Below are positions 5,901 through 14,621 of a DNA stretch of 64,000 bases, piece after piece. The notes under the pieces are model-generated. The model did no database searches, was not told the origin of the DNA, and saw only the letters and a list, made by a program, of their open reading frames with translations. The stretch is from Candidatus Azobacteroides sp. (GTDB lineage Bacteria; Bacteroidota; Bacteroidia; Bacteroidales; WRGA01). The stretch spans positions 15,989 to 79,988 of the forward strand of contig JAJQEC010000093.1 in the NCBI GenBank assembly GCA_021201815.1, in the 5' to 3' direction. The stretch's first letter is position 1; each line of letters opens with the position of its first letter. The position numbers and the translations under genes were made by a program.

Positions 5901-7223
5901 TTATGGTTTTATCAGCATCTTTTTTATGAGTAGGTTGTGCTGTGTCTGTACCTGTATAATTACAATCTGTTCCTGGCAGTCCCTTAAGCGGAATGAAAAA
6001 GTTTCTTCATGGATACCGGGGATGTATTCCAGCGGCTGCCCCTGCAGGTTGTACACCCGCACCTGCTTTACCGGGTCGCCCTGGCTGTGGATGTTTACCT
6101 GGCACCTGTCGGTGTACATGTAGAAATCATTCCCCTCCTCTGTTTCCTCCAGGGAGGTGTGGTGCTCTATCATCCTCAGGTAGAAGCGTCCCTCCGGTAT
6201 ATTCCCGGATAGGTTGGTAAAGGTGTATTGTGGGTTTCGTTTCAGGTTCTGCATTACCCTTTTCTCCGTATCTTCCAGGTACAGGGTGATCCCTTCCTCC
6301 CACTCATTCAGCCCGTTTGCTTTTAGGGTAAGCAATTCCCCTTTCTTACTGGTGCGCACAGCCAGGGGCACCGGCCGGTGTATTTCCCCGACCGTGTGTA
6401 TGGACACCCCTCTTTTCTCCCCCTGCTCCTCAGTGATAGCATAGAGGATGATGGAGGTCTCCTCAGCCAGGAAGAGGGTGTACTGGTCCTTTTCCTTGTG
6501 GAAGTCATTTGGCATTCCTTCACGCAACAGCAGTGTGATGGCGCTCTCGCGGTTACTCAGGCTGGAAAGTTCGATGTTGACGCTTTCCCCTGTGGTAGCT
6601 GCCCTTAACTTGCTCTTAGGGCTGGTCATTGCCATGGCCGGTGTGATGGCCAGGCTGCCGAATGTGGCCGGGTCCGGCTGCTTGACTACGATAAAGGATT
6701 GCATGGGCGGTATGGTGGCATTCCCGGCCAGTGTGCTCAGGTGGTCCATGCCGCTTAAGAGCTTGACCGCTTCAAAGAAACCGCCGGAAGCATTGTCCGC
6801 CCAGATGTAAAAGTCACTGGTGATCATGGCTGCGTTTGCCTGCTGAAAAGTCCTCAAATCCAGGTGTGACATGAACGGGTTTCCCACCAGTGCTGTGGGT
6901 GCCAGCACATCATCCACATAGGTTTCCATAGAGAAGTTTCCGGTTGCCGGGTCGTAGGAAGGCAGCCCCTCGTAAGTAAACCTGCTCCTGAGCGAATCCC
7001 CATCTGCCACGTGTTTACGTTCCAGCTCCACTTTCCATGGCTGTCCGGTGTACGGGTGGTCTGCAATGCCCCCTGTCTTGTCGTTCACCTGGTTGTCCTC
7101 ATCCAGCCCGTAGTAATAGTTGTACTCGTTTTCGGCCCTTGGGAATGTGAAGCGTGCCTTGTTGTCCGCCGGTGGCATGAGCCCAGAATATCCGCCTGCT
7201 CCCATGTGCGTTTCCAGGTCCAC
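5901..7223 (-). CDS. C-terminal 440-codon segment of the giant surface protein, carrying the T9SS C-terminal sorting domain; same frame as 7224..12824, separated only by TGA
   Basis: The track ORF starts at a GTG that is the codon immediately after the TGA at 7226..7224. Ends ...VRVYNLQGQPLEYIPG...IVIIQVQTQHNLLIKKMLIKP (CTD-like). No signal peptide of its own. Confidence 0.75.
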   Translation of the reverse strand: MDLETHMGAGGYSGLMPPADNKARFTFPRAENEYNYYYGLDEDNQVNDKTGGIADHPYTGQPWKVELERKHVADGDSLRSRFTYEGLPSYDPATGNFSMETYVDDVLAPTALVGNPFMSHLDLRTFQQANAAMITSDFYIWADNASGGFFEAVKLLSGMDHLSTLAGNATIPPMQSFIVVKQPDPATFGSLAITPAMAMTSPKSKLRAATTGESVNIELSSLSNRESAITLLLREGMPNDFHKEKDQYTLFLAEETSIILYAITEEQGEKRGVSIHTVGEIHRPVPLAVRTSKKGELLTLKANGLNEWEEGITLYLEDTEKRVMQNLKRNPQYTFTNLSGNIPEGRFYLRMIEHHTSLEETEEGNDFYMYTDRCQVNIHSQGDPVKQVRVYNLQGQPLEYIPGIHEETFSFRLRDCQEQIVIIQVQTQHNLLIKKMLIKP

Positions 7224-13352: not shown

Positions 13353-14621
13353 TTATTGTTTTCTTATTTTACGGACCACGGATGTTTCCCCGGATGTGAT
13401 GCTGATGAAATACATCCCGGATCCCCATCCCTGTGTATGGACTGCCACTTGGTTTACATTCCCTGCAGTGGCTTCATAAAGTTGTTTTCCTGCCATGTCA
13501 CAGACAGCAATGCGGGCAGTCATGTCTGCTTCCTTTTCAATGACCAGGGTCTCCCCGGAGAAATACGCGCGGATGTTTTCCTGTTCCTGCTCTTTTATGC
13601 CTACTGTGGGGTCTTTGTAAAGGAAGGTTTGGTATTTTAATATCAGGTTATTGTATTGCCCCTCGGTATTTCCTCCGGAGGCATACATTCCCGGGAACTG
13701 TTCATATTGGGTATTTATGCTGAAAAGATTATGGGTCATTTCACAGGTCACAGCCTTTCCTGCCAGGTTGGGGTTGGTGAAGGTAAAGTAGCCGTTCCCG
13801 TCGGTGGTATAGTCGCTTCCCTGCTGCAGGATGTTTTCCTGCTGGTCTTTCCATGTGTACTGCGTGACACCGAAGTCATGGGTGTTTGCGTCCCACATGA
13901 TGCCTTTTACATCCTTAAAAAAATAATCCGTGTGCAGGTCAATGGGCTCTCCGATATAATTCCCTTCCGTGTTGACCGAATCCTGCTGGTTGGCACAGAA
14001 GTAATAGTTCCCTCCGTTGGCGTCTTCGACTATGATTTTAGGCATGCTGTTGAACTTGAGCTTATTTCCCGAACAGTTCAAATACGGGATGGTATTGGTT
14101 TTATAGGGGAGGTATTCGCCTTCTTCTATTCCTGTAAGGATAAGTTCCTCGAGTGCGGATTCGCTGCCTGTAGGACAGATAAGTTCAATGTATGAGAGGT
14201 TTGCAGCGTTCAGGGTAATGGAGGTGATCCTGTTTGTGACCGCCATTCGGAAATCGAACCGTTGCAGTTCACTGCATGCGCTCAGGTCGAGTTTCCCGGC
14301 ATATCCGCCACCCCACGTGATTTCCGAGATTCACCCGTCCTTAAAGCTGACACCCTGCAGGATGCTGGTTAAGGTTTCTGTCTTTTCCAGGTCTTCTGCA
14401 CTCAGGTCTTTGTTCTGGCTCATGGTATGGAAGTTGTAGAAGAACCCGTTATCTATGTTGCTGGCAATTTGCCTGTTGCAGGGCTGTAGTAGGAATTCCT
14501 TAAGCTGCCCGAGTTCCTGCTCATTGTAGTTTTGCGGCAGTACGTTCAGGCAGAAACCGGATAAAAGGAATAAAAGAAAAATACGCAGTGTTGTTTTTGT
14601 GTGTAATAGATTTCTTCTCAT
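13353..14621 (-). pseudogene. LRR-like T9SS cargo gene (cassette B) interrupted by an in-frame TGA at 14333..14331
   Basis: ATG at 14621..14619 (MRRNLLHTKTTLRIFLLFLLSGFCLNVLPQNY...). Hand translation across the junction reads ...SFKDG*ISEITWGGGYAGKLDLSACSELQRFDFRMAVTNRI, all in one frame. The paralog reads ...NDTGRISEIAWGGG. C-terminus has a T9SS CTD (...GMYFISITSGETSVVRKIRKQ). Confidence 0.8.

What the first reader, a model, noticed from the sequence alone, without database searches (positions are those of the whole stretch)
5901..14621. Cassette B is compositionally discordant with its tandem paralog and with the flanking genome
By eye (not computed), cassette-B genes are roughly half G+C, and higher still in 5901..10000. 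The homologous cassette-A segments and the core genes look closer to 35-42%. An example of homologous stretches is 61..120 (tcatatacacgatcaatcagcactgtacgg...) against about 10137..10200 (tcgtacatccggtcaatgtctatggtccag...). The crowd of long spurious plus-strand ORFs in the track between 5.9 and 12 kb is a by-product of this composition. Paralogs duplicated in situ should share mutational bias, so cassette B may have been imported from a GC-richer relative and inserted next to its homolog. AT-rich spacers (5189..5900 and 15126..15450) flank it.
Basis: partly seen in the sequence, partly recalled or inferred. Interest (0 to 1): 0.55.

Follow-up and report, generated by a model that had tools for sequence, protein, structure and literature searches.

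The report
GC-rich, stop-interrupted copy in surface-protein gene array
One of three tandem copies of a rare three-gene surface-protein cassette in an uncultured gut Bacteroidales genome has a much higher G+C content at silent codon positions than its sister copies and the housekeeping genes, and carries two premature stop codons. The likeliest reading is a copy that evolved in a GC-richer relative, was recombined back into the array and is now decaying, which is an ordinary kind of event.

Summary

**Composition**
- Window 6001-9250 is 51-58% GC and the rest of cassette B is 44-50%. Cassette A is 36-44% and the other 50 kb is 29-45%.
- GC3 is 0.56-0.68 in B genes, 0.37-0.45 in A, 0.36-0.40 in an off-window third copy C, and 0.36 ± 0.07 in 35 core genes (z = 3.0-4.9 for B).
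- At codons with identical amino acids, B is GC-ending where A is not 417 times, against 190 the other way (p = 2e-20). A versus C shows no difference.
- B also differs in codon dialect and in GC-normalised dinucleotide signature (z up to 4.8, with CpG depleted).

**Relationships**
- A, B and C form one clade and are nearly equidistant (64-68% amino-acid identity, synonymous sites saturated).
- B is therefore not a recent duplicate of A, but it does not nest among foreign homologs either.
- No donor was found in any collection searched.
- The GC excess is confined to coding sequence. B's leader and intergenic DNA are host-like.

- Both long B genes carry an in-frame TGA that replaces a conserved Trp or Arg.
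- The array has three copies, in the order B, A, C.

**Verdict.** Import or allelic replacement from an unsampled GC-richer close relative is the best explanation (about 0.6). It is not proven.

The parts
13353..14612 (-). Cassette B gene 1. It is the homolog of the A gene at 3553-4833 and encodes a secreted protein with a T9SS type A C-terminal sorting domain. The reading frame is broken by an in-frame TGA. The real start is the ATG at 14612; the 264-aa ORF running up to 15125 is a spurious upstream extension.
   Evidence: tblastn gives 53% identity to A_426 in one frame across the stop. Por_Secre_tail / TIGR04183 score above their cut-offs. GC3 is 0.58.
14331..14333 (-). In-frame TGA in B gene 1, at a position that is Arg in four homologs (A CGC, C AGA, O2 CGA, O4 CGT), Lys in a fifth (O5) and a gap in a sixth (O1)
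   Evidence: Codon alignment of seven homologs.
12842..13258 (-). Cassette B gene 2, a 138-aa protein with a signal-peptide-like N-terminus and a hydrophobic C-terminal stretch. It is the homolog of A 2798-3193.
   Evidence: tblastn 41% identity; alignment with six homologs; GC3 0.60 against 0.37 in A.
5901..12824 (-). Cassette B gene 3, a 2307-codon giant surface-protein gene. An in-frame TGA splits it into 1866-aa and 440-aa ORFs. Full-length homologs are 2310-2362 aa.
   Evidence: Homologs P0002 and P0004-P0006 cover 99-100% of the fused query. Alignment. No Pfam or NCBIfam family matches.
7224..7226 (-). In-frame TGA replacing a Trp codon (TGG) that is invariant in all five aligned homologs
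   Evidence: The same base is present in an independently assembled Logan contig, which is identical over 12765 nt.
5904..9368 (-). The most discordant segment of B, with GC3 of 0.675
   Evidence: Change-point analysis. Dinucleotide signature distance has z = 4.8, with CpG rho 0.73 against 0.97 in the core. Codon usage is rich in NNC, AGG, GGG, GTG, AAG and GAG.
9369..12877 (-). Intermediate segment of B, with GC3 of 0.49. It covers the N-terminal 1152 codons of the giant gene and the 3' end of the small gene.
   Evidence: dS(A,B) here is about 1.8, similar to A-C. Signature z = 3.0.
12878..14612 (-). Upstream segment of B, with GC3 of 0.59. It covers gene 1 and most of gene 2.
7227..7796 (-). 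Conserved domain of about 170-190 aa (W-x-G...NW-x-NG-x-P-x-x-C-T...) lying just before the TGA. Hundreds of other large proteins share it.
   Evidence: 562 representatives at E ≤ 1e-3. Not in Pfam. Partner domains include BACON, Ig_2, Beta_helix and Gly_rich_2. The AF2 model has pLDDT 75.5 and no PDB fold match.
5189..5900 (.). AT-rich spacer between cassette B and cassette A (GC 0.20-0.39 per 100 nt)
   Evidence: It does not align with the other spacers.
14613..15652 (-). Leader and spacer upstream of B. Its proximal 513 nt (14613-15125) are 0.37 GC, which is no richer than the A (0.357) or C (0.348) leaders.
   Evidence: It is weakly homologous (68-73%) to the C leader.
1..4833 (-). Cassette A, with host-like composition. 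Gene 1 is 3553-4833 (426 aa, T9SS CTD). Gene 2 is 2798-3193 (131 aa). The giant gene starts at 2765 and runs off the window start; the full gene is 2310 aa (P0002).
15653..16252 (-). HU-HIG family DNA-binding protein gene immediately upstream of the array, with host-like GC3 of 0.38
   Evidence: Pfam PF18291, E = 5e-35.

Best explanation
**What the region is (shown).** It is the head of a tandem array of three paralogous three-gene cassettes, in the order B, A, C on the minus strand. C and most of A's giant gene lie beyond the window start. Each cassette encodes:
- a protein of about 425 aa with a type IX secretion (T9SS) C-terminal sorting domain;
- a protein of about 135 aa;
- a giant protein of about 2300 aa.

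The window comes from an uncultured Bacteroidales MAG labelled 'Candidatus Azobacteroides sp.'.

**What most likely happened (inferred).**
1. The triplication is old, and the ancestral cassette was AT-type.
2. The coding sequence of cassette B spent a long time in a related lineage with a GC-richer genome and a different sequence signature.
3. It re-entered this genome by homologous recombination into the existing array. That is allelic or xenologous replacement with breakpoints near the ends of the coding block. The three GC3 regimes suggest a mosaic.
4. Since arrival it has started to decay under the host's AT-biased mutation. Two G:C>A:T transitions turned a conserved Trp codon and an Arg codon into TGA, so B gene 1 and the B giant gene are probably no longer made as full-length secreted proteins.
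For: **B is a compositional outlier; A and C are not.**
- GC3 z = 3.0-4.9 and codon-usage distance above every core gene.
- Paired codon tests give p = 1e-20 to 1e-27, with the A/C control non-significant.
- The GC-normalised dinucleotide signature has z = 4.8 and 3.0 for two B segments and ≤ 0.8 for A. CpG is depleted (0.73 against 0.97) and TpG/CpA is in excess.

**Long co-residence should have equalised GC3.**
- Synonymous sites are saturated (dS A-C about 1.9; A-B and B-C not computable) while dN is 0.23-0.28. The copies therefore evolved under purifying selection for a long time.
- A, C and the core agree in GC3. So do two paralogs in another MAG, both at 0.29.

**The shift is on the B branch.**
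- B-specific synonymous changes are 202 AT>GC against 55 GC>AT. A has 72:81 and C has 62:81.
- B's synonymous branch has 293 inferred changes against 174 in each of A and C, about 1.7 times as many.

**Other points**
- Three statistically separate GC3 regimes fit recombination tracts.
- Both stops are G:C>A:T transitions at conserved residues, in an otherwise intact set of about 2860 codons with no frameshift. That suggests recent loss of function.
- B's preferences for CTG, CAG, GCA, CCG and few NCG codons resemble the host's and differ from those of the sampled GC-richer relatives. This points to a close relative as donor.
- The join to cassette A and the AT-rich spacers is reproduced base for base in an independent assembly.
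Against: - No donor or B-like sequence was found anywhere. The nearest non-self relatives are A and C at 63-66% identity, then 41-44%.
- A, B and C are monophyletic and nearly equidistant, so phylogeny gives no positive sign of foreign origin.
- B's leader (0.37 GC) and intergenic DNA (0.37) are not GC-richer than A's or C's. Import therefore requires breakpoints at the ends of the coding block, or strong constraint on the non-coding DNA.
- No integrase, tRNA or flanking direct repeats mark an island.
- Codon positions 1 and 2 are only slightly GC-shifted.
- The AGG- and GGG-rich usage is not typical of known GC-rich bacteria (my own knowledge), and no sampled genome shows it.
Confidence: 0.6

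Rival explanations
1. In-situ, locus-restricted GC enrichment. B has always been in this genome, and a process limited to its coding sequence raised GC3. Candidates are GC-biased gene conversion at a recombination hot spot, or selection on codon or mRNA properties of the array's first, promoter-proximal copy.
For: - The GC excess is confined to coding DNA and mainly to third positions; the leader and intergenic DNA are host-like.
- B groups with its in-genome paralogs and no donor exists.
- Codon preferences are partly host-like.
Against: - An effect of +0.2 to +0.3 in GC3 is far larger than reported for bacterial biased gene conversion (my own knowledge).
- A and C are the same kind of gene, adjacent and on the same strand, yet are unaffected.
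- Housekeeping genes that are usually well expressed have low GC3: malate dehydrogenase 0.33 and the porin 0.37. B favours AGG and GGG, which are not typical optimal codons.
- The dinucleotide signature also changes, including CpG depletion.
- The gene now carries stops, so present-day selection on translation is unlikely.
Confidence: 0.15
2. Assembly or binning artefact. The B coding block belongs to another, GC-richer organism in the metagenome and was joined into this contig.
For: - The sequence is from a MAG.
- The Logan assembly breaks near 15480, inside a repeated palindromic element, and again near 16417. Linkage of B to the SufB side therefore rests on the MAG assembly alone.
Against: - An independent Logan contig runs without a break from about 15480 through all of B, the spacer, all of A and 2 kb beyond.
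- It is identical to the window over the 12765 nt compared.
- The most similar A/B stretch found is 56 nt at 89% identity, so the cassettes share no long exact repeat. That leaves no repeat-mediated path between them in a k-mer assembly graph.
- A GC-rich foreign genome would not share the AT-rich spacers on both sides.
- Two nonsense codons would be odd in a functional gene of another organism.
Confidence: 0.05
3. TGA is decoded rather than read as stop, either through an alternative genetic code in the donor or host or through programmed read-through. B would then be an intact, functional cassette.
For: - One TGA sits exactly at an invariant Trp codon.
- TGA ends only 2 of 40 long ORFs in the window.
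Against: - The other TGA aligns with Arg or Lys, not Trp.
- TGA does terminate ORFs in the window, including the 406-aa GTPase gene at 20727-21947 (GTP-binding domain families) and the gene at 41517-42593.
- The other ORFs are not fragmented under code 11.
- UGA reassignment is known from AT-rich reduced genomes (my own knowledge), which is not the direction of B's bias.
Confidence: 0.05

Closest known systems
Horizontally acquired genes recognised by atypical composition, and their amelioration (Lawrence & Ochman framework; cited from my own knowledge)
   Same: A block of genes whose GC3, codon usage and dinucleotide signature depart from the resident genome, with sharp boundaries. It also shows signs of decay through AT-directed mutation.
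   Different: - There are no mobility genes, tRNA target or flanking repeats.
- The block replaces or sits within an array of its own paralogs.
- Positions 1 and 2 are barely shifted.
- Non-coding parts are host-like.
- The donor is unknown, and phylogeny does not place B outside the host's own clade.
Mosaic genes made by interspecies homologous recombination, for example pneumococcal pbp genes and Neisseria surface antigens (from my own knowledge)
   Same: A resident locus partly overwritten by tracts from a related species. Here that would explain three segments with different GC3 inside one cassette and the BC|A versus AC|B switch in tree signal along the gene.
   Different: In the classical cases the donor alleles are known and the tracts are over 80-90% identical to them. 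Here no donor is sampled, and divergence from every known copy is over 30% at the protein level.
Operons for giant T9SS-secreted surface adhesins, for example sprC-sprD-sprB of Flavobacterium johnsoniae and its paralogous sets (from memory; a lead, not a test)
   Same: - A Bacteroidota locus of small accessory genes followed by a giant cell-surface protein gene.
- T9SS sorting domains, and several paralogous sets in one genome.
   Different: - There is no detectable sequence homology to SprB, SprC or SprD families in Pfam or NCBIfam.
- The family is tiny: about eight loci in all public data searched.
- Function is untested.
Borrelia vls antigenic-variation locus (GC-rich cassettes in an AT-rich genome; from my own knowledge)
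   Same: A tandem array of surface-protein cassettes with local G+C well above the genome average.
   Different: - vls cassettes are highly similar to each other and act as conversion donors. Here the copies are only 64-68% identical.
- Only one copy is GC-rich.
- There is no strong GC skew.

Membership tests
Horizontally acquired gene block (genomic-island sense) | Composition, codon usage and oligonucleotide signature atypical for the host genome | tested here: met
   GC3 z = 3.0-4.9. Codon distance 0.22-0.35 against a core maximum of 0.216. Dinucleotide delta* z = 4.8 and 3.0.
Horizontally acquired gene block (genomic-island sense) | Phylogeny places the block with a foreign lineage rather than with host paralogs or orthologs | tested here: not met
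   A, B and C are monophyletic against five outside homologs. Distances are 0.40-0.47 within the clade and 0.85-1.01 to the outside. Sampling of the family is very thin, so this is weak negative evidence.
Horizontally acquired gene block (genomic-island sense) | Identifiable donor or closer relative in another genome | tested here: not met
   The best non-self hits are 63-66% identical (same contig), then 41-44%. The GTDB scan gave 3 loci at 39-44%. The JGI metagenome scan gave 1 locus at 44%.
Horizontally acquired gene block (genomic-island sense) | Mobility hallmarks: integrase or transposase, tRNA target, flanking direct repeats | tested here: not met
   No tRNA in the window. No flanking direct repeats. 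No recombinase was seen among the ORFs scanned next to the array. A MITE-like palindrome lies upstream at 15455-15631, but only on one side.
T9SS type A cargo (C-terminal sorting domain proteins) | C-terminal Por_Secre_tail / TIGR04183 domain above the curated cut-off | tested here: met
   This holds for gene 1. The A copy scores 36.9 bits in Pfam (cut-off 27) and 42.7 in TIGR04183 (cut-off 23). The B copy scores 30.6 and 34.1.
T9SS type A cargo (C-terminal sorting domain proteins) | The same domain at the C-terminus of the giant protein | tested here: inconclusive
   The full-length A copy (P0002) scores only 16.2 bits against a cut-off of 23. The B 440-aa part has no hit. The AF2 model of the last 70 or so residues is a confident beta structure (pLDDT 75-86) in an otherwise poor model.
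T9SS type A cargo (C-terminal sorting domain proteins) | Actual secretion and surface attachment through a T9SS | not testable with these tools
   This needs experiment. Another T9SS cargo gene (Sel1 repeats plus Por_Secre_tail) lies at 29141-30571, so the organism appears to use the system.
Pseudogene (recently inactivated) | In-frame stop at a residue conserved in intact homologs, with homology continuing in frame downstream | tested here: met
   TGG>TGA at 7224-7226, with Trp in 5 of 5 homologs. Arg codon >TGA at 14331-14333.
Pseudogene (recently inactivated) | The stop is not a sequencing or assembly error and is not decoded | tested here: inconclusive
   The sequence is identical in an independent assembly of the same sample. 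TGA is used as a terminator elsewhere in the window. Read-level allele frequencies and proteomics are not available.

The most novel reading that the evidence does not exclude
Cassette B was never outside this genome. In this reading, a locus-restricted process that acts only on its coding sequence drove one of three adjacent paralogs from GC3 of about 0.4 to about 0.68 and changed its dinucleotide signature, while its neighbours stayed at the genomic equilibrium. Strong GC-biased conversion or an unknown transcription- or translation-linked bias at the array's first copy would be candidates.
Probability: 0.12. Interest if true: 0.6.

Novelty: new member of a known kind. Interest (0 to 1): 0.3.

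Why it matters
If the import reading is right, gut Bacteroidales of the Azobacteroides group exchange whole surface-protein cassettes between lineages with different genomic G+C. The exchange would work by recombination into existing paralog arrays, which is a way to vary the cell surface. It would also give a clean natural example of an incoming gene being inactivated by the recipient's AT-biased mutation.

The locus also flags two things that annotation currently misses. One is a very rare, uncharacterised three-gene family for giant secreted proteins. The other is a conserved domain of about 170 aa that hundreds of large proteins share and Pfam does not cover.

None of this overturns current understanding.

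Tried and rejected
**TGA recoding.** Rejected. The two TGAs align with different residues (Trp; Arg/Lys), and TGA terminates normal genes in the window.

**A>G / T>C hypermutation or editing.** The two-fold codon shifts suggested it. It is rejected because B-specific changes at four-fold sites are 45 transitions against 73 transversions, with gains mostly of C.

**Translational selection.** Rejected. Housekeeping genes have low GC3, and B favours AGG and GGG.

**Family-wide GC richness.** Rejected. Homologs track their hosts: GC3 0.29 in hosts at 0.25-0.31, and 0.50 in a host at 0.46-0.54. Two are moderately above their hosts, but none approaches B.

**Recent conversion between B and A or C as the cause of the low-GC3 middle segment.** Rejected. 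Nucleotide identity is not raised there.

**Repeat-mediated misassembly.** Rejected.

**Donor searches.** Nothing closer than the in-array paralogs turned up.
- Three protein searches. even missed known paralogs, so that index search is not exhaustive.
- The exhaustive HMMER search, which collapses relatives above 50% identity and so cannot show a donor.
- The GTDB and JGI scans.

**Function.**
- Pfam and NCBIfam give nothing for the giant and small proteins.
- AF2 of the 440-aa part was poor, at pLDDT 44.6.
- AF2 of the conserved domain was moderate, at 75.5, with no significant PDB match (best E = 4).

**Other blanks.** Rfam and tRNA scans found nothing. A literature search for the sample and MAG identifiers found nothing.
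Full report
**1. What is at the coordinates**

All genes of the region lie on the minus strand. Cassette B has three genes.

- **Gene 1 (13353-14612).** This is the homolog of the 426-aa cassette-A gene at 3553-4833. Both carry a T9SS type A C-terminal sorting domain.
- **Gene 2 (12842-13258, 138 aa).** This is the homolog of A 2798-3193.
- **Gene 3 (5901-12824).** The ORF lister splits it into 1866 aa and 440 aa, but the two parts are in the same frame and separated only by a TGA at 7224-7226.

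Cassette A's giant gene starts at 2765 and runs off the window start.

A protein search with the fused 2307-aa product found only nine proteins among 5.8e9.

- The exact 1866-aa product is annotated in a MAG called 'Candidatus Azobacteroides sp.' (LUG18_09875).
- The full-length A copy is 2310 aa (LUG18_09850, 63% identity).
- There is a third copy, C (LUG18_09830, 66% identity), on the same 90-kb contig.

Fetching contigs showed the same three-gene cassette in C and in every outside homolog. The array reads HU-HIG gene, B, A, C.

The rest of the window is ordinary housekeeping DNA. It includes SufB/D, a GTPase, dehydroquinate synthase, malate dehydrogenase, inositol-1-phosphate synthase, MnmA, phosphoglucose isomerase and lysyl-tRNA synthetase.

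**2.

*Bulk GC.* GC is 0.51-0.58 in 6001-9250 and 0.43-0.51 up to 14500. It is 0.35-0.45 in cassette A, 0.27-0.34 in the two spacers, and at or below 0.43 in every 2-kb bin of the other 50 kb.

*GC3.*

| Gene set | GC3 |
|---|---|
| B genes | 0.58, 0.60, 0.56, 0.68 |
| A genes | 0.45, 0.37, 0.42 |
| C genes | 0.38, 0.36, 0.40 |
| 35 core genes | 0.361 ± 0.066 (maximum 0.52) |

B genes are 3.0-4.9 sd out, while A and C are within 1.4 sd.

*Paired comparison.* At codons that encode the same residue with the same first two bases, B ends in G/C where A does not 417 times, against 190 the other way (p = 1.6e-20). For B versus C the counts are 417:162. The A versus C control is 258:219 (not significant). 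Gene 1 shows the same pattern.

*Codon-usage distance.* Distance to the pooled core is 0.22-0.35 for B. That is above every core gene (maximum 0.216) and well above the giant genes of A and C (0.075-0.077).

The excess of antisense ORFs scales with GC3 across the family: 2, 5, 7, 8, 10 and 12 for GC3 of 0.29, 0.40, 0.42, 0.51, 0.58 and 0.48.

*Two refinements.*
- A change-point analysis finds three GC3 regimes in B: 0.59 (14612..12878), 0.49 (12877..9369) and 0.675 (9368..5904).
- The excess is confined to coding DNA. B's leader is 0.37 GC, against 0.357 for A and 0.348 for C. B's internal intergenic DNA is 0.37, against 0.35 for A. GC falls to spacer level within the last 100 nt of the giant gene.

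**3. Relationships of the copies**

Amino-acid identities in the giant protein are A-B 0.64, B-C 0.67 and A-C 0.68. Identity to outside homologs is 0.42-0.48.

With five outgroups, Kimura distances are 0.40-0.47 inside the trio and 0.85-1.01 outside it. The trio is close to a trichotomy:

- ((A,C),B) appears in 65% of bootstraps;
- the last quarter of the gene favours (B,C) in 96%;
- the second quarter is split between AC and AB.

This is a mosaic signal. Genes 1 and 2 give the same picture. B's distance to the outgroups equals that of A and C, so its protein is not accelerated.

Synonymous divergence is saturated (NG86 dS A-C = 1.9; A-B and B-C not computable) and dN is 0.23-0.28. The copies are therefore old and were under purifying selection for most of their history.

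Parsimony on sites where two copies agree assigns the following synonymous changes:

| Branch | AT>GC | GC>AT |
|---|---|---|
| B | 202 | 55 |
| A | 72 | 81 |
| C | 62 | 81 |

The shift is therefore derived on the B branch from an AT-type ancestor.

**4. Is it just GC?**

No. The GC-normalised dinucleotide signature distance to the core is 0.139 for 5904-9368 (z = 4.8) and 0.104 for 9369-12877 (z = 3.0). The cassette-A DNA lies inside the core range. The change includes CpG depletion (0.73 against 0.97) and TpG/CpA excess.

Codon tables show what B's 3' segment prefers:
- NNC over NNT (His CAC 0.89, Asn AAC 0.76);
- AGG at 0.45 of Arg codons and GGG at 0.47 of Gly codons;
- GTG, AAG and GAG.

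It keeps host-like choices (CTG, CAG, GCA, CCG, few other NCG codons).

The sampled GC-richer relatives have GC3 of about 0.5, including a termite-gut 'Ca. Azobacteroides' MAG. They use a different dialect (TTG, CAA, many NCG codons). If there was a donor, it was closer to this genome than any sampled relative.

**5. The two stops**

- The TGA at 7224-7226 replaces a TGG that is invariant in all five aligned homologs.
- The TGA at 14331-14333 replaces an Arg codon (CGC, AGA, CGA and CGT in four homologs; Lys in a fifth).

Both are G:C>A:T transitions. There are no other stops or frameshifts in about 2860 codons.

The sequence is identical in an independent Logan assembly over the 12765 nt compared. 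TGA terminates other genes in the window, and the ORFs are not fragmented under code 11. Recoding is therefore unlikely.

Copy C is also damaged. Its giant gene ends at 2143 aa with a TAA and so lacks the C-terminal part. Only cassette A looks intact.

**6. Explanation**

Old paralogs that have shared a genome should share GC3. A, C and the core do. So do two paralogs in MAG EPI_MAG_00028, both at 0.29.

B does not, in GC3, codon dialect or signature. The simplest account is that B's coding block evolved for a long time in a GC-richer close relative that has the same array. It then returned by homologous recombination, replacing the resident copy. Segment boundaries would have produced the three regimes. 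Two AT-directed mutations have since knocked it out. I put this at about 0.6.

What weakens it:
- no donor has been found;
- phylogeny does not discriminate;
- there are no mobility hallmarks;
- the non-coding DNA inside the cassette is host-like.

Rivals:
- **In-situ, coding-restricted GC enrichment (0.15).** It fits the host-like non-coding DNA. It has to explain why A and C escaped and why the signature changed as well.
- **Assembly chimera (0.05).** The independent, unbroken and identical contig argues against it, as does the lack of any long exact repeat shared between A and B.
- **Decoding of TGA (0.05).** Discussed in section 5.

A hypermutation or editing signature was tested and rejected. 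So was translational selection.

**7. What the cassette encodes**

Gene 1 is a T9SS type A cargo protein. The giant protein has a signal peptide and no known domains.

Its last 190 or so residues before the TGA are a conserved domain. This domain occurs in 562 cluster representatives, in proteins of 600-4300 aa that also carry BACON, Ig, beta-helix or glycine-rich domains.

- A model of the domain reached pLDDT 75.5 and matched no solved fold.
- The model of the 440-aa tail was poor except for its last 70 or so residues, which look like a sorting-domain beta sandwich.
- The full-length A copy hits the T9SS tail models only below threshold.

The inference is a secreted, cell-surface giant protein with two accessory proteins. 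Function is unknown.

The full-length family is very rare. There are three copies here, two loci in one Bacteroidales MAG, one in a termite-gut Azobacteroides MAG, and two or three metagenome contigs. More distant relatives, at 30-33% identity, appear among the representatives.

**8. Verdict**

The compositional discordance is real and strongly significant. It should be reworded as replacement within a three-copy array by a copy that evolved in an unsampled, GC-richer close relative, followed by pseudogenisation.

This is a new instance of a well-known phenomenon in a poorly known gene family, and of modest interest.

Noticed in passing
window 15455-15631 and 24187-24453: There are two copies of a MITE- or REP-like palindromic element with conserved inverted ends of about 65 nt (CCGTGKGCTGAGGC..CACGGCTA...). 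The first has 49-nt arms, folds at -85 kcal/mol (z = -6.6) and sits between the HU-HIG gene and cassette B; the Logan contig ends inside it. The second borders the low-GC island. No Rfam family matches.
   Followed up: partly
window 24400-28300: This is a low-GC island: 29-31% GC, and GC3 of 0.23-0.25 in four small ORFs of 173-182 aa with no or only weak Pfam hits (DUF5043). It is the only other dinucleotide-signature outlier in the window (delta* 0.10). It lies next to a Sel1-repeat T9SS cargo gene (29141-30571) and may be a second foreign insert, of the opposite bias.
   Followed up: partly
L002 2253-8684 (third cassette C, off-window): The giant gene of copy C stops at 2143 aa with a TAA, where A and B continue for about 165 more residues. 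It therefore lacks the C-terminal sorting region. Only one of the three cassettes (A) appears intact.
   Followed up: partly
L009 9551-17041 (Ca. Azobacteroides sp. Mp193P4bin6): In this termite-gut homolog the small gene 2 is fused in frame to the giant gene, giving one 2496-aa ORF. That suggests the two products work together.
   Followed up: no
window 7227-7796 (B giant protein residues about 1677-1866): This conserved domain is absent from Pfam and NCBIfam. It is present in 562 cluster representatives (209 at E ≤ 1e-10), always a few hundred residues before the C-terminus of large, diverse proteins.
   Followed up: partly
window 16390-16480: A short run of degenerate tandem repeats (GTTGAGCGTT-like) lies between the HU-HIG gene and sufB/D. 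The Logan contig that carries sufB starts here, so this is a second assembly break point.
   Followed up: no
window 5904-9368: CpG is depleted (rho 0.73) and TpG/CpA is in excess (1.18) relative to the host (0.97 and 0.91). Arg and Gly usage is unusually rich in AGG and GGG. No sampled relative shows this codon dialect.
   Followed up: partly
giant-gene alignment, columns 1001-1100 and 1901-2200: In all lineages GC3 dips where the protein is least conserved and rises where it is most conserved. This hints at a family-wide link between constraint and silent-site composition.
   Followed up: no
window 3982-4923 (+): A 313-aa ORF lies antisense to cassette-A gene 1. Like the plus-strand ORFs inside B, it looks like a by-product of the sense frame rather than a gene.
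   Followed up: no
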